Source: a virus (Duplodnaviria > Caudoviricetes). From it: 64,000 nucleotides of DNA. The position numbers and the translations under genes are program-made. The first letter of the stretch is position 1. Every line of letters begins with the position of its first letter. The notes under the pieces are model-generated. The model worked only from the letters and a program-made list of their open reading frames with translations. It made no database searches and was not told where the DNA came from. Positions 3,559 to 41,663 of the stretch are shown one piece after another. The stretch is taken from the IMG/VR virus record IMGVR_UViG_2974651877_000001, positions 49,761 through 113,760 of that record, one strand, 5' to 3'.

Positions 3559-3561
3559 CCC

Positions 3562-3587
3562 AAAGCCCGCCAAGTGCGGGCTTTTTT
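3562..3587 (+). terminator. Rho-independent terminator
   Basis: AAAGCCCGC-CAAGT-GCGGGCTTTTTT. Confidence 0.85.
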
Positions 3588-3648
3588 GCGTGCAACGAAA
3601 GCCACACTCATCATTCGAGGTATGTCAAGCGATAATTTTAATCTATAG

Positions 3649-3677
3649 TTGACACCATCCCCATATATAGGTATACT
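3649..3677 (+). promoter_or_regulatory. sigma70 promoter
   Basis: TTGACA-N17-TATACT. Confidence 0.8.
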
Positions 3678-3722
3678 GTCAAGGTAGGGTTACAAATTTA
3701 AAGACCAGTAACTAACTGGTAT

Positions 3723-4169: not shown

Positions 4170-4510
4170 TTAAAGCTATCGTACTAGCGTTAGTGTTTCT
4201 ATGTGCTCCTGTCTTAGGTGAACAATGTAGTGAACTAACAAAGGTAGAGCCTAATCATCTACCTGAATATCAAGCTTACCAAGAAAGTCTTCAGGAACAG
4301 CTTAATGCAGGAATTCCAGAGGATAAATTCAATTATTACTGCATCAATAATGTAGAATATCAGATTAGTACAGTGTCTGTAATACCAGAGTACCAGAAGG
4401 AACAGGAAATGGTAGTAGAGATATTTGAACAACTAGAAAGGGCATCTGACCTTACTGATAGAATACTAGACGTAGTACCTATTAACAAGCTAGCCAAGAG
4501 CGAGGAGTGA
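4166..4510 (+). CDS. secreted/periplasmic protein
   Basis: Signal peptide MIKAIVLALVFLCAPVLG; ATGA-coupled to the upstream gene; two Cys in the mature part. Confidence 0.65.
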   Translation: MIKAIVLALVFLCAPVLGEQCSELTKVEPNHLPEYQAYQESLQEQLNAGIPEDKFNYYCINNVEYQISTVSVIPEYQKEQEMVVEIFEQLERASDLTDRILDVVPINKLAKSEE

Positions 4511-4527
4511 TTGCTGGAAACTTATAG

Positions 4528-4556
4528 TTGCCTAACTGTCTCAAAATTGATATAAT
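4528..4556 (+). promoter_or_regulatory. sigma70 promoter
   Basis: TTGCCT-N17-TATAAT. Confidence 0.75.
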
Positions 4557-4598
4557 ATTTATATTAATCAACGAAAGACCAGAAACCTAGGAGACTAA

Positions 4599-5348
4599 AT
4601 GGAACCACAAAAACTAACCGTAACAGGTGATATTAGCAAAAACCGTGTAGGTGCTCAGCTACCGTCTGAAGCACCTCACGTATTCATTTCTTACCGACCA
4701 AACCCAGGAGGAATTTATCAGGTACATCTAGACGAGGGAATTTCCCTGGCATCTAAGTACCGAGACCTAAAGCATCTACTGCGTAATGCCTCCGAGTCGG
4801 ATACCTTTGAAATCTACCTTAACGGGCCAGGCGGCCACCTCAGTACGTGTATCGAACTGGTTCATGAGATAGCTAATACCAAGGGTCGGGTTGTTGGGCA
4901 CCTGACAGGGGAAGCCCAGTCAGCTCACGCTAATATCTTTATGGCGTGCCACGAACATGTAGTATACCCGTATAGTTTGCTAATGGTTCATACTTTCTCT
5001 GGCGGATTTTACGCCAAGGGCGAAGATGTGACTCGTGCTGCAAAAGCGTATAACGAGCTTACTCGAACTTGCTATACTGACCTATATACAGGTTTCCTGT
5101 CTGACGAAGAGTTGGAAGATGTACTTCGCAACAACCACGACAGATACTACATTGGCCAAGAGATTCTTGACCGCTTAGCGGGCACGTACGCTCACCGCGA
5201 AAAGCTAGCACAAGAGGCGGACGAACAGGCTCAGGAAGCTATGCAAGAGGCATTAAAAACTCTAGAAAACGTGCAATCCGGCCCCAATGACGTAGCACCA
5301 CCTGAACAGCCTGAGTCCCCTGACGAAGAACAGGAAAATGGCGAATAA
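4599..5348 (+). CDS. clpP: ClpP-like protease subunit
   Basis: YLNGPGG, GEAQSAH (catalytic Ser) and LMVHT (His) motifs; T5 synteny. Confidence 0.88.
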   Translation: MEPQKLTVTGDISKNRVGAQLPSEAPHVFISYRPNPGGIYQVHLDEGISLASKYRDLKHLLRNASESDTFEIYLNGPGGHLSTCIELVHEIANTKGRVVGHLTGEAQSAHANIFMACHEHVVYPYSLLMVHTFSGGFYAKGEDVTRAAKAYNELTRTCYTDLYTGFLSDEELEDVLRNNHDRYYIGQEILDRLAGTYAHREKLAQEADEQAQEAMQEALKTLENVQSGPNDVAPPEQPESPDEEQENGE

Positions 5349-5724
5349 ATACTCAAAAGCAAGTAGAGAACGACTAGATACTTGTCACCCTCTCCTAATT
5401 AAACTTATGGAGAGAATCCTTCCTAGATGGGACCACACCATTGTATGTGGCCACCGTTCCAAGGAAGAACAGAACCGACTGTACGCTGAAGGGAAATCAC
5501 AGCTACAGTATCCTAGGTCAAAACACAATGCCTATCCTAGCATTGCCGTTGACATACAACCTTACCCATTCAAAGACGAAAGAGACCTATACTACTTTAT
5601 TGGATACGTGAAAGGCGTAGCTGATGAGATGGGAATTAAGTTAAGAATGGGAGCCGACTGGAATGACAACAAGACAGTTACAGACAACTGGATTGACGCT
5701 TTCCACATCGAGCTAGTACTTTAA
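5338..5724 (+). CDS. endolysin, L-alanyl-D-glutamate peptidase (M15 family)
   Basis: GHRSKEEQ, SKH..PSIAVD, GADW and DAFHIEL Zn-peptidase motifs. Confidence 0.93.
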   Translation: MANKYSKASRERLDTCHPLLIKLMERILPRWDHTIVCGHRSKEEQNRLYAEGKSQLQYPRSKHNAYPSIAVDIQPYPFKDERDLYYFIGYVKGVADEMGIKLRMGADWNDNKTVTDNWIDAFHIELVL

Positions 5725-5727
5725 TCG

Positions 5728-5753
5728 AACCCTGCATTAACGTGCAGGGTTTT
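5728..5753 (+). terminator. Rho-independent terminator
   Basis: AACCCTGCA-TTAACG-TGCAGGGTTTT. Confidence 0.8.
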
Positions 5754-5769
5754 CTCGTATGAGGAGCCT

Positions 5770-6036
5770 ATGAAGATATACCTATTTTCATCCAACGGGT
5801 GTTACCCCTGTGAAAAAGCACAGGACGTGGTATCGAAAATACTAAAAGAGAATCCGTTAATAGATATTATAAAGGTTACTAGACCAGACCCACTATTCGC
5901 AAGCTATGGTGTGGTTATGGTTCCCACCTTACTTATCGACCCCGGCGATAAGCCAGGTGCGGCCTTGGTGGGCGTGAGCAACATTACAAAAGTCGAAGTC
6001 GAGGGATTACTACGAGATTTCGGATTTCTTCAATAG
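5770..6036 (+). CDS. thioredoxin/glutaredoxin-like protein
   Basis: CYPC active site and YGVVMVPTL cis-Pro motif. Confidence 0.85.
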   Translation: MKIYLFSSNGCYPCEKAQDVVSKILKENPLIDIIKVTRPDPLFASYGVVMVPTLLIDPGDKPGAALVGVSNITKVEVEGLLRDFGFLQ

Positions 6037-6062
6037 CCAAAACATGTAAATTTCGCTATAAT
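6034..6062 (+). promoter_or_regulatory. sigma70 early promoter
   Basis: TAGCCA-N17-TATAAT followed by ATTTATATAAATTGA. Confidence 0.75.
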
Positions 6063-6093
6063 ATTTATATAAATTGAATGAGAGGAAATATTA

Positions 6094-6387
6094 ATGGAAA
6101 TGTTGAAACCAGACATGAGCAAAGCAGAACTTCAGCACGTACTAGCTATCTTGCTAGGCAACGGTATTTCTGCCGAGGAGCTTAAGCCTCTTACTGTGCC
6201 AATCCTTAATAAGATGCTTACTGCTCTAGAGACTAACGCTAAAGCGTTCAACGCACTAGAAGATAAGTATCGAGAGCTGCTTCAAGCCAGTACTTACAAG
6301 CCTATTGCTCCTAAAACACATCGTAACCGTGGGGCGGAGAACCGAGCCATGGCTAAAGAACTTCGCAAGCTAAAGAGTACCAAATAA
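6094..6387 (+). CDS. hypothetical protein
   Basis: 97-aa ORF with GAGGA RBS. Confidence 0.75.
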   Translation: MEMLKPDMSKAELQHVLAILLGNGISAEELKPLTVPILNKMLTALETNAKAFNALEDKYRELLQASTYKPIAPKTHRNRGAENRAMAKELRKLKSTK

Positions 6388-6472
6388 ATGCAACTGTATT
6401 ACTTATTCTTAATAGTGTTAGCACTATACGAAAACATCGACACAATCAATTACTTAGACGCGAGGTACGGAA

Positions 6473-6886
6473 GTGAAATTCTCTGATAAACTAATCGAAC
6501 TGGTAGACGAATACGACCTAGAGGGTCCTCACCTGCCTTACGGCTTCGCTGTAGAGCATATTAACGAGAAAGGCCAGATGGACTTCGCTCACTTCATCCG
6601 TAAATATAAAGTATACGGCTCTGTAAAGGATTTCTGCTCAGCGGTAGAAACTGTATTTGGTACGTTACAGTTTACCTATGACGTACCCACGGATACAGTG
6701 ACCAAAGAAGAGTTCCTAGAGATTTACGAGTTTGGTAAATTCCCTCGGGTCATGGACTGGATTCCTTACGTAGCTGCTAAGAAAGGCAAGCTAATCTTGC
6801 GTGAAGATTTGTTTGCCTGGGTACTTGGTACTTCTGCGCCTTCCAAAGCTAACTACAGCATGGGAGATATTAATAATGTCGAGTAA
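6473..6886 (+). CDS. hypothetical protein
   Basis: 137-aa ORF; GAGG before GTG. Confidence 0.75.
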   Translation: MKFSDKLIELVDEYDLEGPHLPYGFAVEHINEKGQMDFAHFIRKYKVYGSVKDFCSAVETVFGTLQFTYDVPTDTVTKEEFLEIYEFGKFPRVMDWIPYVAAKKGKLILREDLFAWVLGTSAPSKANYSMGDINNVE

Positions 6887-7097
6887 AGACCCCGTAAATA
6901 TCGACACAATTTGTAGTATCCTAGAAGAGCTTCACCCTAGCCACTACGACTCGGTTATTCTGTCCTGTAGGTCAGGTGCTCCACACTCTCTACTGCCTGA
7001 GATTGATTTTAGTGATAGAGAGACTTCGGTTTACGTAGAGTCCTTTCTGACAATAAAGAAAACAATTAATTGCCAATCAGGTAGAATTTCCGTATAA
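6876..7097 (+). CDS. hypothetical protein
   Basis: ATG 6876 after GGAG (track ORF 6801-7097). Confidence 0.6.
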   Translation: MSSKDPVNIDTICSILEELHPSHYDSVILSCRSGAPHSLLPEIDFSDRETSVYVESFLTIKKTINCQSGRISV

Positions 7098-7098
7098 T
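7070..7098 (+). promoter_or_regulatory. sigma70 early promoter
   Basis: TTGCCA-N17-TATAAT. Confidence 0.8.
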
Positions 7099-7124
7099 AT
7101 TCATATTAAATAAGGAAACGGAAA

Positions 7125-8249
7125 ATGAATTATATGTCACTAGACCTACAGATGGGGCCGCAGCAGGAGAGTAAGCTAGATACGCTTATTAGAACCTCTG
7201 CCAACATACTACAGGCTAAGCAGCCCCCAAAGGTTCCTTTAATACCTGTGTCTGAAAGACACCTACTAAACGCATATACACAAACTCTAAGAATAGAGGG
7301 TAACGTAAGTTCTTGGGCGGAGTATGTTGCTCAAGCCCCTGAACGTTTAGGTTCTAAATTCCCAGAACGAGTTAGGTTCTGGGCTAGTAAGAAAAGTAAT
7401 ATGCCAGCTTGTCCTTTCCTACTAGGACAGGAAGTGGTTTTACCGCTTTACTTCGACTCTATGAATACTATGACTGTGTTCTGTGTGTCAACCTTAAGCT
7501 ACGGAGAGATGCATCAAGGAGTAAGTTTTGATAGGCTTATCCCGTTATTTGATAGGCTCTTCTACTCTAGAGTCCTTAATAAGGTAGAAGTACCTCCAGT
7601 AGAAAGAAGCAACATTAGAAAAGCTGTATCCACACTGATGGACTCTATCAGTGATTGGGACAAGGTTCGTAAAGACGTAATACGCACTCTATCTTTAGAG
7701 CCGACTCCAGAAAATATCTGGGACACCCCTGATATATTCGTAAACAGCAACACTCACACTTTCAAAAATGTAACAGTTAAAGATAAACAGGACAATAAAA
7801 TGAGCAAGACAAAACGAATCGCAGAAAACATGGTAGAGAGCAACAAATCAGCAGCAAAAGATATTGCATTTTTGAACGCAGGTCGTACAGCCAATATGGT
7901 TATCAAAGCCGCAATGACTCCTCTGCTAAAAGCGGTGCTTAAACCAACTTTCATGCAGCGAGCCATGATGAAGCTAACAGGCACTACTGACCCAGTGGAA
8001 CGCTTTATGGAATCCCCAGTGTCTGACCTACTAGCTGCGGAAGGCTTTAAATTAGCCCTAGAGCTTAAAGGCGTTAAAGACGAAAAACTACAAGAAACCG
8101 CAGATAAAGCTATCGTGTACGCAGGTATGAAGGTCACAGAGAACATTCCTCTAGAAGACCTATTAGATGATGCTATCGAAAAAGTAGCGGAAGCGGTTTC
8201 TGGTAGCAATATGCTGGATAAACTAGCAGAGAAAACTCGTAGGTACTAA
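7125..8249 (+). CDS. hypothetical protein (possible internal start at 7800)
   Basis: 374-aa ORF; in-frame ATG 7800 preceded by AGGA. Confidence 0.75.
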   Translation: MNYMSLDLQMGPQQESKLDTLIRTSANILQAKQPPKVPLIPVSERHLLNAYTQTLRIEGNVSSWAEYVAQAPERLGSKFPERVRFWASKKSNMPACPFLLGQEVVLPLYFDSMNTMTVFCVSTLSYGEMHQGVSFDRLIPLFDRLFYSRVLNKVEVPPVERSNIRKAVSTLMDSISDWDKVRKDVIRTLSLEPTPENIWDTPDIFVNSNTHTFKNVTVKDKQDNKMSKTKRIAENMVESNKSAAKDIAFLNAGRTANMVIKAAMTPLLKAVLKPTFMQRAMMKLTGTTDPVERFMESPVSDLLAAEGFKLALELKGVKDEKLQETADKAIVYAGMKVTENIPLEDLLDDAIEKVAEAVSGSNMLDKLAEKTRRY

Positions 8250-8251
8250 GT

Positions 8252-8401
8252 ATGGGAGCATTACTATATCTTATCGTGTGTGCCTTGGTAGGCTACGCGG
8301 CTACTAACTACAATAGGAGCCCCGTAGGCTGGTTCCTATTCTCTGCGGTCTTTAGTCCTATAGTAGGGATGTTACTCTTACTATTGGTGGGTAGGAAATG
8401 A
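8252..8401 (+). CDS. small two-TM membrane protein (49 aa)
   Basis: MGALLYLIVCALVGYAATNYNRSPVGWFLFSAVFSPIVGMLLLLLVGRK; ATGA overlap with the next gene. Confidence 0.7.
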   Translation: MGALLYLIVCALVGYAATNYNRSPVGWFLFSAVFSPIVGMLLLLLVGRK

Positions 8402-8610
8402 ACCCTTTGGAACTAACACAAGCACAGCAAAAACTTCATGCAGTAGATAGTTGGGCTGACTGGATGGATAATTGGATTACCATCCAGTTAGACCCTATAA
8501 GCAACAAACCACTGCACTACTGCTTTCACCCAGACAACTACTGTTTTCTGGTAACATCAGACCCTGAAGAGGCATGTAATGGATTTTCAAAATATCCGTA
8601 CGACGGGTAG
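8398..8610 (+). CDS. hypothetical protein
   Basis: 70-aa ORF, translationally coupled. Confidence 0.65.
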   Translation: MNPLELTQAQQKLHAVDSWADWMDNWITIQLDPISNKPLHYCFHPDNYCFLVTSDPEEACNGFSKYPYDG

Positions 8611-9016
8611 TGTATACGAAGCTATCCAAGGAGCTATTGAGCAGGCTCGTTATACAAAAGATAAAGAAGCTCTATCAGTGTTCCAGTACCTAGTCGGAGA
8701 AGTAAGCCGACAACGTACAGTGAATACTTCGGACAGCGCAGTTGTCCCTCTTGTACGAAAAGTACAGAAACGACTTGTAGAGTCGGTTGAGCAAGGAGCC
8801 ACTCCTGAAATTCAATTGACTTACCTAAATAGCTTTATCGACGCGTGGCTTCCTAAGCAAGCTACCGCAAAAGAGCTAGAGGCCATGGTGAATAAAGCCA
8901 TTGAGCATCTAGGTGACAAAGCTAACATCGGTTCAGTAATGAAGCTGTTAAAACAAACCAACGTACCATTCGATGCTCGATTCGCATCTACCCTAATTAA
9001 AGAAAAACTAGCATAA
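8579..9016 (+). CDS. YqeY/GatB-domain-like protein
   Basis: AR..KDK.ALS, WLPKQ.T..EL and IGSVMK.L...D pattern typical of YqeY. Confidence 0.75.
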   Translation: MDFQNIRTTGSVYEAIQGAIEQARYTKDKEALSVFQYLVGEVSRQRTVNTSDSAVVPLVRKVQKRLVESVEQGATPEIQLTYLNSFIDAWLPKQATAKELEAMVNKAIEHLGDKANIGSVMKLLKQTNVPFDARFASTLIKEKLA

Positions 9017-9027
9017 GGAATACCACA

Positions 9028-9909
9028 TTGATTAAACGTACACTAGCAAAAATCGCCGTAGTCGCTCTAATGGCTACATCACTAACAGGTTGTTTTCGTG
9101 GAGAGCGAGTAGAGATTCCTACTGCGTTCGTGGGTAAGGTTCAGACTGCGGCAGGTTTCGAGAAGGGAAAAGCGCGTAATCCCTCTAAGTTCCGACTTAG
9201 TCACTGTGGCCCGACCGAGGCGTGTGAGCGTCTAGTAATTCTAGATGTATCTGATAATCAGTACACTGAAGACTTTCTTACCTATATGCCGGTCGACCAG
9301 CTTAATATGGGCTACCGTATTACAATGACACTGGCTATCGACCCAGAGGAGCAGGATGGTCTATTCCAGAACGTCCCATTCCGAGAAGTTTCTGGCTCCC
9401 TTGGTGTTATCGAGCAGGCACGAGTGTATAAGACATACGCACAGCCTATCCTACAAACAAAAATCCCTGCTGTAGTCTCGCAACTCAGCATCGGTAAAGT
9501 ATCTTCTAACCTAGATGCGGTTAACGCCGTACTTCTAAAAGAAGTAGGTACAATTATCAAGTCAGAGACGCCATTCCGACTGAAGCATATCGGTATGGTT
9601 AATCCTAAGTACCCTGACATCATTACACGAGCTAAAGAGCTAGCAAAAGAGCGTGAAGCTGCACTAGGCCAAGTTAAGGCTAAGAAAGAGCTAGAACTAG
9701 CAGAAATGGCTGCTGAGAAGGAGCTAGAAGCGGAGCGCCGAGCAGTACAGCTTATGAAAGCAAAAACTGACTCTATGATTGCAGATGCTGCCTCTGACCG
9801 TTATGTAGAGCTTAAACGCCTATCAGTGCTGGAGCGACTAGCAGACTCTGATAATAAAGCGTTTATCCCTGTGGAAATGTTCGACCAACTAATGATTAAA
9901 GGTGAATAA
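9028..9909 (+). CDS. SPFH/band-7-like lipoprotein
   Basis: Lipobox LTGC, ERVEIPTAFVGKV start, YPDII motif, C-terminal Ala/Glu-rich coil. Confidence 0.75.
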   Translation: MIKRTLAKIAVVALMATSLTGCFRGERVEIPTAFVGKVQTAAGFEKGKARNPSKFRLSHCGPTEACERLVILDVSDNQYTEDFLTYMPVDQLNMGYRITMTLAIDPEEQDGLFQNVPFREVSGSLGVIEQARVYKTYAQPILQTKIPAVVSQLSIGKVSSNLDAVNAVLLKEVGTIIKSETPFRLKHIGMVNPKYPDIITRAKELAKEREAALGQVKAKKELELAEMAAEKELEAERRAVQLMKAKTDSMIADAASDRYVELKRLSVLERLADSDNKAFIPVEMFDQLMIKGE

Positions 9910-9911
9910 TC

Positions 9912-10292
9912 TTGGATTTACTAATTAACATCCTACTAGTAACGAAGCCCGTATTGGGGCTTCTACTACTGCTAGTACTGGTTCTTTGTGGTTGTAAATA
10001 CTTTAAGGTAGATTTACCTTACGCAAAGATTCTTAAAGGTTCGGGTGTAGTGGCTTTACTGGCATCAATTGCCATGGTAGCCTTCTCCCCGATAACTCAA
10101 CCTACTACACAAGTTTACGACAACACTAGAGACTTGCAGGCTATGGAAGCCAAGATAGACCGAATGGAAGCACCGTCCTTAGATAGCTTCACTTCTAAGG
10201 AAGCCACACTAACTCTAGAAAGTATTCAGAACGAACACTCTAACGCTTACGACGAGGCTTTAGAGGAAATAGAGAAGTTCGAAATTAACTAA
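9912..10292 (+). CDS. membrane protein
   Basis: Two hydrophobic segments; directly follows the SPFH gene. Confidence 0.7.
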   Translation: MDLLINILLVTKPVLGLLLLLVLVLCGCKYFKVDLPYAKILKGSGVVALLASIAMVAFSPITQPTTQVYDNTRDLQAMEAKIDRMEAPSLDSFTSKEATLTLESIQNEHSNAYDEALEEIEKFEIN

Positions 10293-32633: not shown

Positions 32634-33335
32634 ATGGAACAATATAGACACGAGCTTTACCATAAAGTAAAAGAAACACTAAAACAAGTCAAGACTGGAG
32701 AGGTAGCTTTAACGGAGCTACACTTAATGTTACTAGGGTTCTCTAAGAGAGGAAAACAGTCACTAGCCAAGTCTCAAAGTACTTGGCAATTCTCCTTTGG
32801 TAATGCACCGGGAGGTATAGAGTATATTTGCAGGTACTGGGCATTACATGAAGAACGTGATAACTACTTCCTGAATCCAGAGTCTGTAGGCCTAGGACGT
32901 GGTAAGTCTGATGTAGGCACTGAACTCTCCTTCTCTAGTGGTGATACTACGCATATTAAAGAGTTTGTGAAAAAACTACCTCAATGGCCAGAATTAGGCT
33001 ACAAACCTAACTGGGGCAAATGGAAGAAGAACTCTGAGCTTTCTAATACTTGGAATACTCCTGTCCTCGCTGTGTTGTACGAGATAGTATATGAAAAACC
33101 AGTACATATCATGCAATTGGTAGAGGAACTTAAGACTCGCGAGTTTGTGCCGACCTGCCAGTTCAATTTGTGCAATGGCAACCCAGGACTTAAGCACCCT
33201 ATACTAACTAAAGCTTCTAGAGCCGAACAGATTGAAGATTTTAGACAAGGCAAGCCGGCCAAGCTTCGCGAGACTAAGGAGCTAATGAACGAGAAACCAA
33301 AAATCGGAATGACTATCAAACTCACCCCAGAGTAG
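32634..33335 (+). CDS. hypothetical protein
   Basis: 233-aa ORF with GAGG RBS; last early gene before the non-coding block. Confidence 0.75.
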   Translation: MEQYRHELYHKVKETLKQVKTGEVALTELHLMLLGFSKRGKQSLAKSQSTWQFSFGNAPGGIEYICRYWALHEERDNYFLNPESVGLGRGKSDVGTELSFSSGDTTHIKEFVKKLPQWPELGYKPNWGKWKKNSELSNTWNTPVLAVLYEIVYEKPVHIMQLVEELKTREFVPTCQFNLCNGNPGLKHPILTKASRAEQIEDFRQGKPAKLRETKELMNEKPKIGMTIKLTPE

Positions 33336-33345
33336 AAAAAGTCGG

Positions 33346-33373
33346 TTGGAAAAATTTCAAAATATGTTATAAT
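33346..33373 (+). promoter_or_regulatory. sigma70 promoter upstream of a non-coding hairpin region
   Basis: TTGGAA-N16-TATAAT with an extended -10 (TGT TATAAT). Confidence 0.6.
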
Positions 33374-33430
33374 CATATGGAACTTTTAGAGACTAGGAGG
33401 TTTTAATTTACCTCCTTTCTAAAAACCCTA

Positions 33431-33534
33431 GCTCGCTTCGCGAATGCCTAGGATTCTTGTTTCCATTCGGGAGGCGGCAGCAAAGGAGAGATGGAAACAA
33501 CAAAAATCCTAGTAGTATTCGCAAAAAAGCGAGC
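33431..33534 (+). ncRNA. long interrupted hairpin (sRNA or DNA stem-loop)
   Basis: Four nested stems: GCTCGCTT/AAGCGAGC, GCGAATGC/GTATTCGC, CTAGGATT/AATCCTAG, TTGTTTCCAT/ATGGAAACAA. Confidence 0.6.
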
Positions 33535-33777
33535 AATAAAAATACTACTAAATATCTTTTAATAACTTCTTAATCTTTTGGTGGGGACTCTAATACCCTA
33601 AATTCCACTCGAACCTTAAAAAGTCATCTTTTACTAAAAAGAGACTCCTCAAAAACAGACTACCTTAATTCCCACAAGAGACTTTTACAAAACAAAAGTC
33701 ATGTCCGCCCCGCAATCCCTTCCTAGTATCTTTCCCTATAATTCATTCCTAGCTTCTAAAATCTAATAAACCACATA

Positions 33778-33863
33778 TAGAATCCGCACTCACATAACTT
33801 TCCCTAGAATCCGCACTCACAAACCCATTTCAAAATCTACCTAGCTCACATAACTTTCCCTAG
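33778..33863 (+). repeat. overlapping direct repeats in a G-poor tract
   Basis: TAGAATCCGCACTCACA twice (33778, 33805); CTCACATAACTTTCCCTAG twice (33789, 33845). Confidence 0.85.
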
Positions 33864-34190
33864 CCAACCTATCCCTAGCCTTATTGTAATTACAGGCACT
33901 TAAATTACAGGAACCCGACGGCTTTGCCGTCGAACCCCCTGAGCCCCAGGTTGAATTCTACCAGCTCCTGTACTCCACAGGTGGCGCGGCTTTTGAGGCC
34001 CCAAGGGCGCAGAATCTCACCGAAACCCTATTGTCAAGCGATTATTTCAAGTTTTTGCCGATTACCTCCAAAAACCCTCAAAAACGCCCCAGGGCCCATG
34101 TAGCTCGACGGCTACGCCGTCGACACGTAACTTTTGCACTCATAGATTTCGCACTCCCTGGGGCGCAGAATCAATGTACCAGAGAAGTTG

Positions 34191-34626
34191 AATGATAATT
34201 ATTCAAGAAGCGAAATGATAATCATTTGCAAATGCGAATAGTTCTCATTTACCCCTGCGAGTACGAATGCGGTTGAATGAGAAGCATTATCATCTAGTTT
34301 ATTGCACAAATGGACAATATAAAATATGGCATGAATTTTGTTATCCACATGGCACGATTTTTGCTTTATCTCTGTAAGGCTCTCTGACGACTTGTCCACA
34401 CAGTTATCCACAGCTTATACCACTGTATAAATAAACAGTACCTTGCACGTAGTGCAATATTCTGAGTGCCCTTGAGAGGCTCTGTAAGGCTCTGTAAGCC
34501 GAGTTTCGTCGCCCTAGGTATTAAAGCAAGCCGACCATCCGCTAGCAGTCGTGCCCACGCACGTAACACAAATGATAATCATTCTCATTGCCGGACAGGC
34601 GCGGTCAAATGAGACTCATTCTCATT
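34191..34626. promoter_or_regulatory. cluster of Fur-, DnaA-, LexA- and sigma54-like sites
   Basis: AATGATAATCATTCTCATT 34571; TTATCCACA 34341 and 34404; CTGTATAAATAAACAG 34423; TGGCACGATTTTTGC 34350. Confidence 0.75.
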
Positions 34627-34640
34627 TAGGCGGTGGGCAC

Positions 34641-34666
34641 AAAAAATCCCGCACAGGGCGGGATTG
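34641..34666 (-). terminator. terminator of the minus-strand pre-early operon
   Basis: AAAAAATCCCGC-ACAGG-GCGGGATT on +, giving a hairpin plus U-tract on -. Confidence 0.8.
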
Positions 34667-34678
34667 GCATGATTATTG

Positions 34679-34900
34679 CTAGTCTATTTGAAAATCCTTT
34701 ACTATCTCTAAAAACTCACTGATTAAAATTCCATCGCAGCGAATTTCCTCATCGCTCATATGCAAATAGCGTACCACAAATTTATCATACTCTATTTGCT
34801 CTATTGACTCCACTATCTCATTTTTATAGTACAGTGGACGAAAACCGGACGCTTGCAAATGTTGCAAAAATGAGACAAGCATTTCACTAGGTCTTAACAT
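34679..34900 (-). CDS. pre-early hypothetical protein
   Basis: 73-aa ORF with GGAGG RBS. Confidence 0.7.
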   Translation of the reverse strand: MLRPSEMLVSFLQHLQASGFRPLYYKNEIVESIEQIEYDKFVVRYLHMSDEEIRCDGILISEFLEIVKDFQID

Positions 34901-34914
34901 GGCATCTTCCTCCG

Positions 34915-35142
34915 CTAGCTAATACTCACAAGGTGGGTGATTTTGTCAAACTCATCTTGTGTCATATTTAGGTCATTGCGCAACAATTCTAGGAAGCCTT
35001 CAGAAAAGTCACCTTTTGGGATGTGTTCGACAAAGAGGTTATCTAGCGTACCGTGAATTTCTTCCTCGCAGATTTCCCAAGTGTAGTCTGAAATTTCCGC
35101 AATCTCGAATTCAAGCGCAACGATGTGGTGTAATTTTGGCAT
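34915..35142 (-). CDS. pre-early acidic hypothetical protein
   Basis: 75-aa ORF with GGAG RBS. Confidence 0.7.
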   Translation of the reverse strand: MPKLHHIVALEFEIAEISDYTWEICEEEIHGTLDNLFVEHIPKGDFSEGFLELLRNDLNMTQDEFDKITHLVSIS

Positions 35143-35144
35143 GA

Positions 35145-35366
35145 TTATTGCTCCGTTACGTCTGTTATCTCATACGCACAGCTAGGGGATATAGTCACGT
35201 TTGGCTCATCCGTGCCTATCAACTTACCGCTAGTTGCACCGTTGCCACAATAGCTTTCCAAGTAGCATACCGATTCTGCTAATTCCGAGGCTTGCTCACC
35301 GTCTACAGCATCCACCTCGATAGTAAGGAAAACTGTTACTTCTGCTTCAATCGTAAATTTTGGCAT
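35145..35366 (-). CDS. pre-early acidic hypothetical protein
   Basis: 73-aa ORF with GAGG RBS. Confidence 0.7.
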   Translation of the reverse strand: MPKFTIEAEVTVFLTIEVDAVDGEQASELAESVCYLESYCGNGATSGKLIGTDEPNVTISPSCAYEITDVTEQ

Positions 35367-35368
35367 GA

Positions 35369-35557
35369 TTATTGCCTCACTGTCTTAAGTTCAACCAGAC
35401 CAACAATTCTAGGGTTACTGGTCACTATGCGGTAATACATTTCGTCCCGTAGCTCTTTGCTAGGGAACACCTTTGTGAATCGGCGGATACCTCCGCCGAG
35501 CACATCAACTTTTAGGTAGTAGATTATCTGATAAGCTAACATTGGTCTACTCTCCAT
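35369..35557 (-). CDS. pre-early hypothetical protein
   Basis: 62-aa ORF; start may be the second Met. Confidence 0.6.
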   Translation of the reverse strand: MESRPMLAYQIIYYLKVDVLGGGIRRFTKVFPSKELRDEMYYRIVTSNPRIVGLVELKTVRQ

Positions 35558-35815
35558 CCATGCAGTACAAACCCAAGGCGACCAAGTTACATAAAATCAC
35601 TAAGACGCCTTGAAACGTGTGGGCAAGTTCCGTGCCAAAATAAATTCTGACTATCCCGAACAATGCCCCAAGGATAAATAACACTTTCAAAACTTAGCCC
35701 CTAGTAGTCAATCCCGCCACCACCCTTGTAAGGGTGTTTGCTCTCGTATATCACTAGGGCGATAATGTATGCCAGTGATAAGCCTAAACAGGTAATGAGA
35801 AACATTTTCATCCCC

Positions 35816-36082
35816 TTACATTTTTGCTCGTTGCGGTGCCTTGCCATCTCGCAACGTAAACCAGATAGCCCCTTTATTAAACAGGATACCGCAACGTGGT
35901 TCCCCTACTACGTGGTTATTGACTGCACTACGCTTTTTCAAGTGCTTGCAATCTACGTACGACTGGCGACCTTCACGGATACATTTGTGAACCATTGAGT
36001 CTAAGTCTGTTACTTCTACTTTAACTAACATACCATACCAACGATGAGTTGGGTCGTCTACTATAGCGTTATATGTATACAT
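35816..36082 (-). CDS. pre-early hypothetical protein
   Basis: 88-aa ORF with GAGGA RBS. Confidence 0.7.
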   Translation of the reverse strand: MYTYNAIVDDPTHRWYGMLVKVEVTDLDSMVHKCIREGRQSYVDCKHLKKRSAVNNHVVGEPRCGILFNKGAIWFTLRDGKAPQRAKM

Positions 36083-36135
36083 GGTCTTTTCCTCGCTCTT
36101 AGCGGATAGTGGTAGGGGCTTTCGCCCCTAGTTGG

Positions 36136-36339
36136 TTAGAATGGTTGCACGCCTTTGATGATAGCTTGTTCTAGCTCGCTTAACGTGTCACCTTGCACGG
36201 TCAGGACGTGACCTGAATCCACACGCTCCAAAACAACAGTTAGACCATATACTGCGCAATCAGCAATTGAGAAAATGGCATAGTCACTAGCGTTAGTCTC
36301 AATGATATTGGCTAGGGCTACTAGGTTAGATGCTTTCAT
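36136..36339 (-). CDS. pre-early hypothetical protein
   Basis: ATG 36339 after GGAG, downstream of a promoter. Confidence 0.7.
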   Translation of the reverse strand: MKASNLVALANIIETNASDYAIFSIADCAVYGLTVVLERVDSGHVLTVQGDTLSELEQAIIKGVQPF

Positions 36340-36399
36340 GGTAAATCTCCAAATCTCGGAAAATCCGTCCGGTCGGTCATACCTCGTTGGTATGTGTAT

Positions 36400-36428
36400 A
36401 TAATAGGGCAATCCGTTGCCCTAGTCAA
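36400..36428 (-). promoter_or_regulatory. sigma70 promoter with a palindromic spacer
   Basis: TTGACT-AGGGCAACGGATTGCCC-TATTAT on - strand. Confidence 0.7.
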
Positions 36429-36433
36429 GTGAC

Positions 36434-36730
36434 CTAGCTCACATTTCTGTCAAGATACACGTCTTCTACTTCTAGAACCACGGGCACTACCTCGGCATCT
36501 TCGCTTATGAAGTAATCGTCTCGGAATACCGACCAATCCGTTCTATGTGCCGATGCACTATTGATGGGTAAGTAAATTACATCCTCATCCGTGTCTGAAT
36601 ATGCGCACAAAGCTATCTTAACATTTTTCAGCTCTATATCCTCACCTCGGATAACAAAGGCTTGACCTTGTAGCAAATCGCGTGCCAAGAATTCTTTCTT
36701 GTCTTTTACTTCTTTTTTGTGAACAATCAT
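36434..36730 (-). CDS. pre-early hypothetical protein
   Basis: 98-aa ORF. Confidence 0.7.
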   Translation of the reverse strand: MIVHKKEVKDKKEFLARDLLQGQAFVIRGEDIELKNVKIALCAYSDTDEDVIYLPINSASAHRTDWSVFRDDYFISEDAEVVPVVLEVEDVYLDRNVS

Positions 36731-36740
36731 ATCCTACCCC

Positions 36741-37046
36741 TTACACTACGTAGTCAATTTGGTCTATACCAATTTCACGCCACACCTTAGAGTCACTATA
36801 AATAGACCAATCGTCTAACAGGTCTAGTATCTCGCTTTCTTGCTCTTTGTCGTAGATGCCTATAGTGTGCATATCATCGTTATAGAACACTAGCCCGTAT
36901 TTAGGATGTACCGTAACCAACAAGGACTCATCCGAGTCGATATACCATACCGTGTCTGAAGGGTCATCCGTTGCGGATAACATTGACAATTCCGCCAGTA
37001 TATAGTCAAGGGTAACTAGATTAGCTTTATCTTTTTGGTTAAACAT
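36741..37046 (-). CDS. pre-early acidic hypothetical protein
   Basis: 101-aa Asp-rich ORF with GGAG RBS. Confidence 0.7.
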   Translation of the reverse strand: MFNQKDKANLVTLDYILAELSMLSATDDPSDTVWYIDSDESLLVTVHPKYGLVFYNDDMHTIGIYDKEQESEILDLLDDWSIYSDSKVWREIGIDQIDYVV

Positions 37047-37258
37047 TTTACAGTCTCCAATGTGGGTATAGACCTACTGCCATAGCAGCGATAAACATAA
37101 CGCAAGCAATTAGTTCAAACATGTTATACCTACCTTGTCAAATAGTTTCTGCATACTACTAGCTGTAGTATATTCGCCAGTCTCTTTATTGAGACACCAC
37201 CAGATAACATCAAAATGAATACGGTACATGTTGTGCCCTCCTTGCCGCCTTCCCTTAT

Positions 37259-37286
37259 ATAGTAGTAATTCTAGCTCATTTGTCTA
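37259..37286 (-). promoter_or_regulatory. sigma70 promoter for the minus-strand pre-early genes
   Basis: TAGACA-N16-TACTAT on - strand. Confidence 0.55.
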
Positions 37287-37392
37287 ATAACATTTTGTTA
37301 TAAGAAGCAGCGAATCGGTGCCCAGGTATTATAAGCTCTGTAAGCGTTTCTGAGAGGTTTTAGAAAGAAGCCTTACTTTAATATGTCTAGGT

Positions 37393-38021
37393 TGTGGATA
37401 ACTGCTTAGAATGGATTCTACAGCCTAGAAACGGCATTCTGTAATTTATAAGTGCTTTTTTAGGGTGGATAACTTTACTTAGCCTGTTGATAAGTTGTGG
37501 ATATACAGTACATAACCAGTATTATTAGAACTTGCTAATGTGCATAAAGTTGTGAACAAAAGGCTTGGCATACATTTTGCCTTGCGAAAAGCGTGCCAAC
37601 GATTTTTCGACCTAAATGCAAAAGGTTCTCATCTGCGAATGCGAATCCCTATCATTAATATATAATATAGATTCTCATCTACGACGATTTTTGAGTTTGA
37701 AATTTCTTCTTGACTTTTCAAAAAAGCTCGTTCTCATTCTATTCACTAAAGTGCATGAATATGCAGTTTTAAAGGCAAAAGTGCATAAACTGTTTGGGAA
37801 TACCATTGCAAGGGTAGAGGCTAAAATCGCTTAGAAACGCTTACAGAGCGTTTTAGAGGCATGTACAAATATACAGTGTTTTCAAAACTGGCACGATTCT
37901 TGGGGGTTCGACCTAAATCACAGTTTTAATCAAAAGAGTTGTTTTTTGTTTCTAGGTATGGTAGACGCGCGCCCGTCTCATTATATTTATAGGGCAAATT
38001 TCGCTGATAGCCAAAACCTAT
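37393..38021. promoter_or_regulatory. second cluster of DnaA-, sigma54-, Fur-, ArgR- and LexA-like sites
   Basis: TGTGGATAA 37393 plus near-matches at 37464, 37485, 37496, 37539, 37551; TGGCATACATTTTGC 37566; AGTGCATGAATATGCAGT 37750. Confidence 0.7.
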
Positions 38022-38151
38022 CAATCTAGGGATTTTTAAAGATTTAAACGATTAGACTCTATTCCTAGATTCGCTATTATATACACATACCGCAGCAACA
38101 AGGCGGGACAGAAAAGCCGAAAAGCTTCTCGAAAAAAGTTTCAAAAAGTAG

Positions 38152-38214
38152 TTGACAAGCCTAACGGGTTTTTGAGATACTACTAACGTTCCCAAGGGAA
38201 CACGCTCTTTAACA
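38152..38214 (+). promoter_or_regulatory. rrn-like promoter with boxA antitermination element
   Basis: A-tract UP element, TTGACA-N18-GATACT, hairpin GTTCCCAAGGGAAC, then CGCTCTTTAACA. Confidence 0.75.
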
Positions 38215-38348
38215 ATTTGGATATGTTTTCTGTCAGGTAGCGAATAGTTCACTGACTAGGCATTTAACCAAGTGCCTAGTTCGGGGAATTGTCCCAATAA
38301 TTCGGGTGCTCATAACATCCGGCAAATCTGAAAAAGAGGAAACAAATT

Positions 38349-38834
38349 ATGACTAAGCAAACAACAGCAGCTTTTGAATGGAACAAAGAAACTGAATCAC
38401 AAGCAACAACTCTATACCGTGAACTTGTAGCGGAAGTTGGTTTAGAAACAGCTAATACAAACGTTGAGCTAGGCAAGATTGCAAAAGCGGTCGGTGCTAA
38501 ATCAGCTCAATCGGTACGCTCTAAACTGTCTACGCTTAAAGACGACGAAGGCGAACCAGTTTACCAAAAAGCTGCTAAAGCTCGCTCGGTACGTGGTAAA
38601 GTGAAAACCCAAAAAATTCACTATATCCGTGCATTGCAAAACCTAGCTACCGCTAACGGTGTGGAAGTGACAGGTCGCAAGTTCGAATCACTTGAGCAAG
38701 CTGTAGGTTCAGACTTGGAGCTAATCGTAGAACTAGCGGAAGCCCTAAGCGGTAAGCAGGTAATTGTTAACCCTGACGACACTCAAGCTGACGAAGAAGC
38801 GAAAGTCCCACGTCAAGAAACGGCTAAAGCGTAA
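38349..38834 (+). CDS. A2: A2 protein (pre-early DNA-binding protein, second-step transfer)
   Basis: F.WN.E...A...Y..L..E.GL..AN..L..IAKAVGA.S..SVRSKL matches T5 A2 as recalled; synteny. Confidence 0.9.
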   Translation: MTKQTTAAFEWNKETESQATTLYRELVAEVGLETANTNVELGKIAKAVGAKSAQSVRSKLSTLKDDEGEPVYQKAAKARSVRGKVKTQKIHYIRALQNLATANGVEVTGRKFESLEQAVGSDLELIVELAEALSGKQVIVNPDDTQADEEAKVPRQETAKA

Positions 38835-41372: not shown

Positions 41373-41663
41373 GATAACGGCAGGGCAGGCAATCGCACGA
41401 TGTACAGCGATTGCCTCCAAAAACAGACTAGACCTGTACAGGGTAGGCGGTAATGAGACTTGTTCTCATTAAGGGCACGTGGCGACCCCCCTTCATGTAC
41501 TACTTATGTGAATTTTGGTTTGGTATGTTATCGGTGCTAATAGAAACCAGAGCCCATAGAAACAGACTACTCGGCAGGTATCGGCGAAAACGGCAGTCCA
41601 AAAATTTTATTATGTGAAATTTCGTACTCGGCAAGGTTCGGCAACCCCATAACAAAATCATCT

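What the first reader, a model, noticed from the sequence alone, without database searches (positions are those of the whole stretch)
34191..34626. First-injected DNA carries a dense array of sites for several different host DNA-binding proteins (cluster 1)
Seen in about 440 non-coding bp downstream of a terminator, with no gene to regulate: Fur-like 19-mers at 34214, 34231, 34276, 34571 (AATGATAATCATTCTCATT, an exact fit to the Vibrio-type AATGANAATNATTNTCATT) and 34608; DnaA boxes TTATCCACA at 34341 and 34404 and TTGTCCACA at 34392; a consensus SOS box CTGTATAAATAAACAG at 34423; sigma54 -24/-12 TGGCAC-N5-TTGC at 34350 with a near-match at 34327. Known: DnaA-box-like repeats were noted in the T5 injection-stop region. 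I do not know of a description of such a multi-regulator array. Inference: a landing pad that coats, anchors or ratchets entering DNA, pauses transfer, shields it from nucleases, or titrates and senses host regulators.
Basis: partly seen in the sequence, partly recalled or inferred. Interest (0 to 1): 0.82.

Follow-up and report, generated by a model that had tools for sequence, protein, structure and literature searches.

The report
Host regulator sites at phage injection stop
A Vibrio relative of phage T5 carries, in the gene-free stretch that matches where T5 pauses its DNA entry, a conserved cluster of binding-site sequences for four host proteins (Fur, DnaA, LexA and sigma-54 RNA polymerase), which names testable host candidates for a pause that is still unexplained.

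Summary
All motifs sit at the stated coordinates. They are far denser than in shuffles. Twelve control regulator motifs give no hit.

The window is a T5-like Vibrio phage. The region lies just past the terminator of the small pre-early operon. By position and motif order it matches T5's injection-stop "Repeat Region 3".

The core, sigma-54 box, three DnaA boxes, then a LexA box, keeps its order in 7 of 7 related Vibrio-phage loci of at least two named genera. A mirrored second cluster lies between the pre-early operons. T5, Gostya9 and a Klebsiella phage carry LexA, DnaA and Fur-like sites in the same place but no sigma-54 box. Fur-box number varies by lineage.

The phage encodes no Fur, LexA, DnaA or sigma-54 activator homologue.

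Only the DnaA boxes and inverted repeats are in print (Davison 2020). I found no paper naming the Fur, LexA or sigma-54 sites. This scan has noted the same arrays before on other T5-like genomes.

Best reading, an inference: host proteins load here and help hold or pause the entering DNA. No binding has been shown.

The parts
33778..34160 (+). Short direct repeats (TAGAATCCGCACTCACA type, 3 copies, and others) and two CGACGG...CCGTCG palindromes. They lie distal to the array. This is the likely counterpart of the T5 'DRD' repeat field, in which the terminal-repeat boundary lies.
   Evidence: Families D3, D5, D6, D8 and pair I1/I2. VF16 has a comparable repeat family around its PhageTerm repeat boundary. 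T5 repeats read.
34191..34294 (.). Distal block of Fur-type boxes: 34214 (3 mismatches), 34231 (2), 34276 (2), plus a half-site at 34191. The window lacks one 35-bp unit that X1, SJ1 and PG07 have.
34327..34364 (+). Degenerate sigma-54-like box (34327, 2 mismatches), exact DnaA box (34341-34349), then exact sigma-54 -24/-12 box TGGCACGATTTTTGC (34350-34364).
   Evidence: The block TATAAAATATGGCAC..TTGC is aligned in 7 of 7 Vibrio-phage sequences.
34392..34412 (+). Pair of DnaA boxes 3 bp apart (TTGTCCACA, TTATCCACA).
   Evidence: The pairing by 3 bp is the feature Davison 2020 describes for T5-like phages.
34421..34440 (.). LexA (SOS) box, CTGT-N8-ACAG with an A/T-only spacer. It lies 8 bp from the DnaA pair.
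   Evidence: CTGTAT....ACAG is kept in 7 of 7 aligned sequences while the middle varies.
34370..34500 (+). Copies of CTCTGTAAGG(CTCT) at 34370 and 34478-34500, reader unknown. Inverted copies lie in cluster 2 (37335, 37839).
   Evidence: Family D11. Pairs I1, I3, I10, I22.
34571..34626 (.). Two proximal Fur boxes (34571 exact, 34608 one mismatch) flanking a conserved GC block.
   Evidence: The exact 19-mer occurs in at least 120 bacterial stretches, next to iron-uptake-type genes in the sample I looked at.
34590..34606 (+). Conserved GC block GCCGGACAGGCGCGGTC. It fits the T5 nick consensus (purine, then pGCGC) on the strand equivalent to T5's nicked strand.
   Evidence: GGCGCG is invariant in 7 of 7 sequences. 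T5 nick annotations and flanks. The SJ1 GenBank record begins exactly at this GCGC.
34645..34665 (-). Intrinsic terminator of the minus-strand pre-early operon (34679-37046).
37334..37903 (-). Cluster 2, the mirrored array between the divergent pre-early operons: DnaA boxes on the minus strand (37393 exact; 37464, 37485, 37496, 37539 with one mismatch), sigma-54-like boxes (37566 plus strand, 37584 minus strand, 37889 plus strand, one mismatch each), Fur-like sites (37615 with 4 mismatches, 37638 with 3) and a LexA-like box (37861, one mismatch).
   Evidence: In the relatives the sigma-54 and LexA boxes here are exact.

Best explanation
WHAT IT IS (confidence about 0.85). The region is the Vibrio-phage counterpart of the untranslated 'Repeat Region 3' of the T5 terminal repeat, the candidate injection stop signal. 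It is a cis-acting, gene-free stretch at the inner end of the first-step-transfer DNA. Its conserved elements are operator-type sequences for host proteins: a LexA box, DnaA boxes in a 3-bp-spaced pair, Fur boxes and, in Vibrio phages only, sigma-54 -24/-12 boxes. A second, mirrored cluster lies between the two pre-early operons.

HOW IT WORKS (inference, about 0.45).
1. LexA, DnaA, Fur-Fe and sigma-54 holoenzyme all pre-exist in the uninfected cell. They bind their sites without new synthesis. Sigma-54 holoenzyme sits at its promoter as an inactive closed complex.
2. They load onto this stretch as it emerges into the cytoplasm.
3. The resulting nucleoprotein block holds the first-step DNA at or near the entry site. 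It may also stop RNA polymerase that reads through the operon terminator from travelling on into DNA that has not yet entered.
4. The transfer pause therefore lasts until the pre-early proteins A1 and A2 release it.

Shown: the sequences, their position, their conservation, and the lack of phage-encoded readers.
Inferred: that host proteins bind, that this phage injects in two steps, and that binding causes or stabilises the pause.
For: Position.
- The gene order dmp, A1, A2, divergent control region, small-gene operon, terminator, gene-free repeats is the same as in T5. There the stretch is annotated 'injection stop signal' inside the left terminal repeat.
- In VF16 (PhageTerm) and Pylo the terminal repeat includes the array.

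Motif order. Read from the terminator outward:
- T5: LexA 9411, DnaA 9510, Fur-like 9552-9697, nick 9748, short repeats, repeat end 10219.
- The window: Fur x2 around a nick-type block, LexA, DnaA pair, sigma-54/DnaA, Fur x3-4, short repeats.

Conservation.
- Sigma-54 box, three DnaA boxes, then a LexA box are present in the same order in 7 of 7 related loci.
- In the alignment of the window and 6 relatives at 56% mean column identity, the invariant columns fall on the contact positions (TGGCA..TTG, TTATCCAC, CTGTAT..ACAG), while spacer positions vary.

Host identity of the sites.
- The exact 19-mer of 34571 occurs in at least 120 bacterial genome stretches.
- I examined 20 of those and scanned 10 ORFs beside 8 of them. 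Of the 10 adjacent ORFs, 3 were TonB-dependent receptors, 1 a periplasmic binding protein (Peripla_BP_2 family) and 1 PepSY_TM.

Other support.
- The phage genome has 0 matches to FUR, LexA_DNA_bind, Bac_DnaA_C or Sigma54_activat.
- 0 of 12 other regulator consensus motifs hit the 436 bp.
- Davison 2020 proposed membrane-bound DnaA on these boxes as the stop (sections read).
Against: - No binding data exist for any of the four proteins on any T5-like phage in the papers I could search.
- Two-step injection has not been shown for Vibrio T5-like phages; I take it from homology.
- Fur boxes are not conserved within the Vibrio phages. This cluster has 6 in X1, SJ1 and PG07, 1 in VF16, VPT02 and pVp-1, and 0 in Pylo and BBMuffin. 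Fur therefore cannot be essential to a shared mechanism.
- Sigma-54 boxes are absent from T5, Gostya9 and the Klebsiella phage (0 of 3). Sigma-54 cannot be part of the ancestral stop either.
- Proteins that bind in the cytoplasm would usually favour entry as a ratchet, not block it. The stop step therefore needs an extra assumption such as membrane anchoring or roadblocking of a puller.
- In a Salmonella genome-wide screen with the T5-like phage Aji_GE, the rpoN effect was indirect: an rpoS deletion or glutamine relieved it. fur and lexA are not among the genes named in the passages I read (PMC8744999; its datasets not seen).
- The SJ1 record places the repeat boundary at window-equivalent 34599. 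That would put most of the array just outside the repeat.
Confidence: 0.45

Rival explanations
1. Regulatory operators. The sites let host LexA, Fur, DnaA and sigma-54 (with a host activator) tune phage transcription to host state (DNA damage, iron, growth). Targets would be the pre-early operons or an unannotated antisense or non-coding transcript. Cluster 1 would be the downstream copy of a looped or paired control region.
For: - Cluster 2 lies in the divergent control region of the two pre-early operons.
- An exact sigma-54 box at 35623-35637 on the minus strand is in the sense orientation, in an intergenic gap about 66 nt upstream of the gene 35369..35557. It is shared with SJ1 and PG07.
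- In the relatives, the cluster 2 sigma-54 box points into the small-gene operon.
Against: - Cluster 1 lies behind a terminator with no gene ahead of its sigma-54 box, only the 3' ends of convergent genes.
- No Rfam family matches: the one hit had E 0.56 and scored below its gathering threshold.
- Folding is only modestly better than shuffles on both strands (z -2.1 and -1.9).
- The phage has no sigma-54 activator.
- In T5 the annotated promoters do not overlap the LexA box at 6213.
Confidence: 0.2
2. Sites for phage proteins or DNA-processing steps. Candidates are the A2 DNA-binding protein, the nicking enzyme, or the terminase that sets the repeat boundary. The likeness to host operators would then be incidental or partial.
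For: - A1 and A2 are required for second-step transfer (Davison 2020 abstract), so they may act on this DNA.
- The conserved GC block fits the T5 nick consensus, and one GenBank record starts there.
- The short-repeat field and the CTCTGTAAGG repeats have no known host reader.
- The Fur-like units often carry GAGAAT where I recall the E. coli hexamer as GATAAT.
Against: - Four independent motif kinds match host consensus sequences exactly. They vary only at non-contact positions across the aligned phages.
- The best Fur site is letter-for-letter a sequence found next to iron-uptake genes in bacteria.
- 0 of 12 control motifs hit.
Confidence: 0.12
3. Decoy or titration array. Replicating phage DNA soaks up LexA, Fur and DnaA so as to derepress SOS or iron-uptake genes, or to block host replication initiation.
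For: Several strong sites per genome, two copies if the array lies inside the terminal repeat. From memory, multicopy Fur boxes derepress the Fur regulon (the FURTA assay), and the E. coli datA locus titrates DnaA.
Against: - For T5, host DNA is degraded and host expression is shut off during the pause, before replication (passage in bioRxiv 10.64898/2026.04.02.716235; T5 A1 annotation). Derepressing host genes would gain little.
- The fixed order and spacing, and the mirrored second cluster, are not needed for a sponge.
- Fur boxes are lost in some lineages.
Confidence: 0.08
4. Replication origin of the oriC type, with DnaA boxes and flanking A/T-rich DNA.
For: Clustered DnaA boxes in a fixed arrangement. 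Davison 2020 notes the likeness to oriC.
Against: - Davison 2020 cites mapping of T5 origins near the middle of the genome. He also notes that replication genes are not expressed during the first step (section read).
- The LexA, Fur and sigma-54 boxes are not explained by this reading.
Confidence: 0.04

Closest known systems
Phage T5 injection stop signal region: 'Repeat Region 3' with inverted repeat IRD'-spacer-IRC', and its partner IRC-spacer-IRD in Repeat Region 2. Sources: T5 record NC_005859; Davison 2020, bioRxiv 10.1101/866236; Heusterspreute 1987 and Wang 2005 as cited there.
   Same: - Same position after the terminator of the small pre-early operon, at the inner end of the terminal repeat.
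- DnaA boxes in 3-bp-spaced pairs.
- A mirrored partner between the divergent operons.
- A field of short direct repeats further out.
- A LexA box and Fur-like repeats in the same order.
   Different: - Adds sigma-54 boxes: present in 9 of 9 Vibrio-phage loci and the window, 0 of 3 enterobacterial loci.
- Has two extra Fur boxes between terminator and LexA box.
- The long arms of the T5 inverted repeat survive only as mirrored motifs.
- No megablast match: the region hit only Vibrio phages.
Bacterial Fur operator clusters upstream of iron-uptake genes
   Same: Same 19-bp consensus; one copy is an exact fit. Sites are overlapping or closely spaced, as I recall for strong Fur operators. The exact 19-mer occurs next to TonB-dependent receptor and iron-transport-type genes.
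   Different: No promoter or gene under it. It lies on a virulent phage.
Sigma-54 (RpoN) -24/-12 promoters, including non-productive or intragenic holoenzyme binding sites (Bonocora 2015, PMC4591121; only the search listing and the start of the abstract seen)
   Same: Exact TGGCAC-N5-TTGC with G after TGGCAC. The holoenzyme is known to bind such sites in an inactive state (that abstract start).
   Different: In cluster 1 no gene lies downstream. No activator gene in the phage. No upstream activator site identified.
Gammaproteobacterial SOS (LexA) boxes
   Same: CTGT-N8-ACAG with an A/T-only spacer; 17 of 20 positions fit the recalled E. coli consensus.
   Different: Not placed over a recognisable promoter. 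Kept by virulent phages that have no lysogeny switch.
Transcription-driven genome entry of phage T7
   Same: A possible reason why a terminator followed by protein roadblocks could halt entry, if host RNA polymerase helps to pull the first-step DNA in.
   Different: No evidence that T5-type entry uses transcription. This is an analogy only.

Membership tests
T5 injection-stop region (Repeat Region 3 / IRD'-spacer-IRC') | Gene-free stretch directly after the terminator of the small pre-early operon, at the inner end of the long terminal repeat | tested here: met
   Synteny with T5 and with VF16's annotated repeat. The boundary in this genome itself is not determined: the assembly collapses the repeat to a 37-bp overlap, and SJ1 disagrees with VF16 and Pylo.
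T5 injection-stop region (Repeat Region 3 / IRD'-spacer-IRC') | DnaA boxes in pairs separated by 3 bp | tested here: met
   34392-34400 and 34404-34412. Feature as described in Davison 2020.
T5 injection-stop region (Repeat Region 3 / IRD'-spacer-IRC') | Inverted partner copy between the divergent pre-early operons | tested here: met
   Cluster 2 carries the same motif kinds on the opposite strand. Only short inverted arms of 16-33 nt are shared.
T5 injection-stop region (Repeat Region 3 / IRD'-spacer-IRC') | Constant 52-bp spacer between the two arms | tested here: inconclusive
   42 bp separate the first DnaA box (ends 34349) from the pair (starts 34392). The arms as Davison defines them cannot be delimited here, so the numbers are not comparable.
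T5 injection-stop region (Repeat Region 3 / IRD'-spacer-IRC') | Acts in cis to stop DNA transfer after the first step | not testable with these tools
   Needs infection experiments. Not shown for any Vibrio T5-like phage that I know of.
Fur operator | Fit to the 19-bp Fur-box consensus | tested here: met
   0, 1, 2, 2 and 3 mismatches at five sites. Consensus from PMC5511505.
Fur operator | Overlaps the promoter of a regulated gene | tested here: not met
   No gene or family match in the gap.
Fur operator | Bound by Fur with metal | not testable with these tools
   Needs gel shift, footprint or ChIP.
LexA (SOS) box | CTGT-N8-ACAG palindrome with A/T-rich spacer | tested here: met
   34423-34438. 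It is the only site in the genome within 3 mismatches of the 20-mer consensus. Conserved in 7 of 7 aligned sequences.
DnaA box | TTATCCACA / TTWTNCACA 9-mer | tested here: met
   Two exact copies and one with a single mismatch.
Sigma-54 promoter | GG at -24 and GC at -12 with the fixed spacing (TGGCAC-N5-TTGC) | tested here: met
   34350-34364, exact.
Sigma-54 promoter | A gene or RNA downstream, and an enhancer-binding activator with upstream sites | tested here: not met
   No gene downstream in cluster 1. No activator homologue in the phage. LuxO-type and NtrC-type sites gave 0 hits. Host activators were not examined.
oriC-type replication origin | DnaA-box cluster next to an unwinding element, with initiation mapped there | not tested
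   Only the DnaA boxes are seen. Davison 2020 places T5 origins mid-genome.

The most novel reading that the evidence does not exclude
DNA entry of T5-type phages is gated by the host's own DNA-binding proteins. LexA, DnaA, Fur and, in Vibrio, promoter-bound but inactive sigma-54 RNA polymerase load onto the last-entering part of the first-step DNA. Together with the mirrored cluster they form the stop or anchor that A1 and A2 later undo. The pause therefore reads host state (DNA damage, iron, replication status), and each phage lineage recruits whichever abundant host binders its host offers.
Probability: 0.2. Interest if true: 0.85.

Novelty: new variant of a known kind. Interest (0 to 1): 0.6.

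Why it matters
How T5 stops after injecting about 8% of its DNA is still described as poorly understood. Papers of 2026 describe the stop signal only as repeats, palindromes and DnaA boxes (passages in PMC13250531 and bioRxiv 10.64898/2026.04.02.716235).

Reading those repeats as LexA, Fur, DnaA and sigma-54 sites turns a descriptive puzzle into four bench-testable candidates. Purified proteins and host mutants for them already exist in E. coli and Vibrio. The Vibrio variant adds a natural comparison: sigma-54 boxes present, Fur boxes variable. That comparison can show which elements belong to the shared mechanism.

If the sites prove to be bound, this would be a case of a virulent phage using resident host repressors as structural parts of its entry programme.

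Tried and rejected
- Structured RNA: Rfam at E up to 1 on 33000-38500 gave one sub-threshold hit (Trp_leader, E 0.56). Folding z-scores were -2.1 and -1.9 on the two strands. This fits DNA-level palindromes, not one RNA.
- Coding: 0 of 6 gap ORFs match PHROGs.
- IHF: 0 core sites in either gap.
- Twelve other regulator, parS and dif consensus motifs: 0 hits in the 436 bp.
- Close relatives X1, SJ1 and PG07 are 95% identical here, too close to show selective constraint.
- The pattern was derived from the site itself, so it is not an independent test.
- RNA evidence: no RNA holder listed. All listed runs are kept as contigs, so I did not lay them.
- IMG/VR scans. The DnaA-LexA composite gave 78 stretches on 58 contigs by my count, 28 of them 103-128 kb. 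The sigma-54-DnaA composite gave 38 stretches, of which only 7 loci on 6 contigs are shared with the first scan. I cannot compute a chance level because the size of the collection is not given. By my rough estimate the second scan may be mostly chance, so I draw nothing from it. None of these loci were examined further.
- The Aeromonas Akh-2 locus is cut by the record end 2.2 kb upstream of A1. It shows only three DnaA boxes and is uninformative.
- Davison 2015 (Bacteriophage 5:e1086500, PMC4743489) is not held. It, the supplements of Davison 2020, and the datasets of PMC8744999 may bear on the novelty and host-factor claims. I did not see them.
- Not tested: whether the array shares DNA similarity with host chromosomes (capture of a host intergenic region).
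Full report
IDENTITY AND SETTING

The window is the last 64 kb of a 113,760-bp virus record. Its only end repeat is a 37-bp assembly overlap, so the long terminal repeat is collapsed. DNA of 33300-34900 matches only Vibrio T5-like phages: 9 records, with SJ1, X1 and PG07 at 91-93% identity.

The flagged 436 bp lie in a 1.34-kb gap (33336-34678). On one side are plus-strand genes. On the other are the 3' ends of a minus-strand operon of small genes (34679-37046). Next comes a second gap, then A2, A1 and dmp on the plus strand. This is the T5 first-step-transfer layout read in reverse. In T5 the order is dmp, A1, A2, divergent promoters, small-gene operon, terminator at 9275-9296, then a stretch annotated 'injection stop signal' (9140-10149), which lies inside the left terminal repeat (1-10219). 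VF16, a cultured relative, has a PhageTerm-derived left repeat of 7427 bp with the same gene order.

THE OBSERVATION

All sites are at the stated coordinates.
- Fur-type 19-mers: 34214, 34231, 34276, 34571 and 34608, with 3, 2, 2, 0 and 1 mismatches to the Vibrionaceae consensus. That consensus is quoted in a passage of PMC5511505.
- DnaA boxes: 34341, 34392 (one mismatch) and 34404.
- LexA box: 34423.
- Sigma-54 box: exact at 34350. The near-match at 34327 has two mismatches.
- The terminator (34665-34645, minus strand) belongs to the small-gene operon.

STATISTICS

- Against 100 dinucleotide shuffles of the window: Fur 6 sites against 0.03, sigma-54 3 against 0.06, DnaA 3 against 0.44. Shuffles reaching the observed count: 0, 0 and 2 of 100.
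- Against 1000 shuffles of the 436 bp: 0, 0, 5 and 1 shuffles reach the observed counts for Fur (2 or fewer mismatches), exact DnaA, CTGT-N8-ACAG and exact sigma-54. None holds all four kinds even at loose thresholds.
- Genome-wide, every strong Fur, exact DnaA and exact sigma-54 match lies in the pre-early block.
As a check I scanned 12 other regulator or site consensus motifs at comparable stringency and got 0 hits.

ARE THEY HOST-TYPE SITES?

- The exact 19-mer of 34571 occurs in at least 120 stretches of bacterial genomes from many phyla.
- In the first 20 stretches it was outside long ORFs in 18.
- Of 10 adjacent ORFs from 8 of them, 3 were TonB-dependent receptors, 1 a Peripla_BP_2 binding protein, 1 PepSY_TM and 1 cupredoxin-like. 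The rest were a LysR regulator, an OprB porin and two ORFs without a family. This is what a Fur operator should look like.
- The phage genome has no match to the FUR, LexA_DNA_bind, Bac_DnaA_C or Sigma54_activat families. If these families read the sites, the readers are host proteins.
- The gap ORFs match no phage protein family. No RNA family fits.

CONSERVATION IN VIBRIO PHAGES

In 7 of 7 related loci the order is sigma-54 box, three DnaA boxes, LexA box, then the last small gene. A second cluster lies in the second gap, with DnaA boxes and a sigma-54 box on the opposite strand; a LexA box is also present there in some relatives. The loci are X1, SJ1, PG07, VF16, VPT02, pVp-1 and Pylo.

I aligned the window, PG07, VF16, VPT02, pVp-1, Pylo and BBMuffin (56% mean column identity). 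The invariant columns fall on four blocks:
- TATAAAATATGGCA..TTG
- TTATCCAC (twice)
- CTGTAT....ACAG
- a GC block containing GGCGCG
Spacer positions inside the sigma-54 and LexA boxes vary. That is the pattern expected if the contact positions are under selection.

Fur boxes behave differently. This cluster has 6 in X1, SJ1 and PG07, 5 in the window (which lacks one 35-bp unit), 1 in VF16, VPT02 and pVp-1, and 0 in Pylo and BBMuffin. Two further Vibrio lineages, 70E34-5 and BBMuffin, also carry LexA, DnaA and sigma-54 boxes.

T5 AND ENTEROBACTERIAL RELATIVES

T5's own repeat holds the following:
- perfect LexA boxes at 6213 and 9411;
- DnaA boxes at 6121-6194 and 9510;
- seven Fur-type matches (3 or fewer mismatches, one exact) between 9552 and 9697;
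- no sigma-54 box (one 1-mismatch match outside the repeat, at 10556).

Gostya9 and a Klebsiella phage show the same three kinds and no sigma-54 box. The Aeromonas locus is truncated and uninformative. The array is therefore a family trait, and the sigma-54 boxes are the Vibrio-specific addition: the window plus 9 of 9 Vibrio-phage loci, against 0 of 3 enterobacterial ones.

Read outward from the terminator, T5 has LexA, DnaA, Fur repeats, nick, short repeats, repeat end. The window has Fur, nick-type block, Fur, LexA, DnaA pair, sigma-54/DnaA, Fur block, short repeats.

LITERATURE

Davison 2020 (bioRxiv 10.1101/866236; abstract, sections 15, 27 and 30, and term searches read) describes Repeat Region 3. 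It covers the inverted repeats IRD'-spacer-IRC' and IRC-spacer-IRD, and eight DnaA boxes in 3-bp-spaced pairs in 25 T5-like phages. It proposes membrane-bound DnaA as the stop. It says of the other repeats and palindromes that it is impossible to guess their function. The words LexA, SOS, sigma and Vibrio do not occur, and every 'fur' is part of 'further'.

Papers of 2023 and 2026 still describe the signal as repeats, palindromes and DnaA boxes, with no experimental test (passages).

Searches combining T5 or T5-like with Fur box, LexA, SOS box or sigma-54 gave nothing relevant. In some searches only the top 15 of 499 and 1,212 papers were listed. Davison 2015 was not available.

REPEAT BOUNDARY AND A LIKELY NICK SITE

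- In VF16 the repeat ends about 460 bp beyond the array, inside a field of short repeats, as in T5.
- In Pylo the 7440-bp repeat also includes the array.
- In the SJ1 record the 6675-bp repeat starts at window-equivalent 34599.
- That point is the G of GCGC in the conserved GC block.
- The T5 record gives its nick consensus as purine, then pGCGC. Its four annotated major nicks read R|GCGCRGG on the minus strand.
- The window's plus strand, equivalent to T5's minus strand, reads GACAG|GCGCGGTCAAAT. This is close to T5's 64.8% site.
- I therefore suspect that this block is the counterpart of T5's 7.9% nick, and that the SJ1 end reflects it. This is not shown.

MECHANISM

Shown: a conserved, gene-free array of host-type sites at the position of the T5 stop signal, mirrored by a second cluster, on a phage with no readers of its own.

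Inferred: pre-existing LexA, DnaA, Fur and sigma-54 holoenzyme load as this DNA emerges and build a block that holds the first-step DNA. The block may also stop polymerase that reads through the terminator from moving on into DNA that has not yet entered. The pause lasts until A1 and A2 act.

Against this:
- There are no binding data.
- Fur and sigma-54 are each dispensable in some lineages.
- Cytoplasmic binders would normally favour entry.
- In a Salmonella screen with a T5-like phage, the rpoN effect was indirect (passages of PMC8744999).

Rivals:
- Transcriptional operators. This is supported by cluster 2's position and by a sense-oriented intergenic sigma-54 box at 35623-35637.
- Sites for phage proteins or DNA processing.
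- A decoy array. This is weakened by early host DNA degradation in T5.
- A replication origin. This is weakened by T5 origin mapping as cited by Davison.

NOVELTY

- The element is a Vibrio-phage variant of a described region.
- Its DnaA boxes and inverted layout are in print.
- I found no paper that reads its other repeats as LexA, Fur and sigma-54 sites.
- This scan has noted the same arrays many times on other T5-like genomes. The notes include e1-151449, e1-336904, e1-5871852 and e1-6025461.
- I reached the T5 comparison before reading those notes, and they agree with it.

LIMITS

- Everything about binding and function is inference.
- The repeat boundary in this genome is unknown.
- Several consensus motifs are recalled from memory: E. 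coli Fur, the LexA 20-mer, sigma-54 and the 12 controls.
- Supplements and one key review were not seen.

Noticed in passing
window 34590-34606 (predicted break between 34598 and 34599, plus strand): A GC block, invariant as GGCGCG in 7 of 7 aligned Vibrio-phage sequences, fits the T5 nick consensus (purine, then pGCGC; T5's four annotated nicks read R|GCGCRGG) on the equivalent strand. The GenBank record of phage SJ1 begins exactly at this GCGC. It is possibly the counterpart of T5's 7.9% nick.
   Followed up: partly
window 41452-41470: A Fur-like palindrome (2 mismatches) lies about 80 bp past dmp. The same site in VF16 covers record positions 18-36, so it begins 17 bp from the PhageTerm left terminus. 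In SJ1 it lies 16 bp from the record end. The leading end of the genome therefore also carries such a site.
   Followed up: partly
window 35623-35637, minus strand: An exact sigma-54 box in the sense orientation, in an intergenic gap about 66 nt upstream of the gene 35369..35557. It is shared with SJ1 and PG07 but not X1, and it may be a working promoter inside the pre-early operon. A Fur-like site at 35794 overlaps the start of a small hydrophobic ORF.
   Followed up: partly
window 36673-36687, minus strand: A third exact sigma-54 box lies inside the coding sequence of ORF 36434..36730 and is not seen in X1, SJ1 or PG07. It is probably chance or lineage-specific.
   Followed up: partly
window 34265-34275 against X1, SJ1, PG07: The window lacks one 35-bp Fur-like repeat unit that the three close relatives have. 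Unit number changes by whole repeats.
   Followed up: yes
window 33778-34160; L001 (VF16) 7990-8500: Fields of short direct repeats lie distal to the array: GAATCCGCACTC type here, ATTTGCACCTA type in VF16 with a dozen or so copies by eye. They recall T5's nine 'DRD' repeats (GTGCAAATCCGACA read in reverse). The reader protein is unknown. The VF16 repeat boundary lies among them.
   Followed up: partly
window 34370-34383, 34478-34500, 37335-37345, 37839-37851: The unit CTCTGTAAG(G/C) recurs in both clusters, in inverted orientation in cluster 2. It matches none of the motifs I tested.
   Followed up: no
L001 (VF16) 8676-8691 and the aligned VPT02, pVp-1, Pylo and BBMuffin positions: These phages carry an extra LexA-like box with one mismatch (CTGT-N8-ACAT) right after the first DnaA box, in addition to the perfect one.
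   Followed up: no
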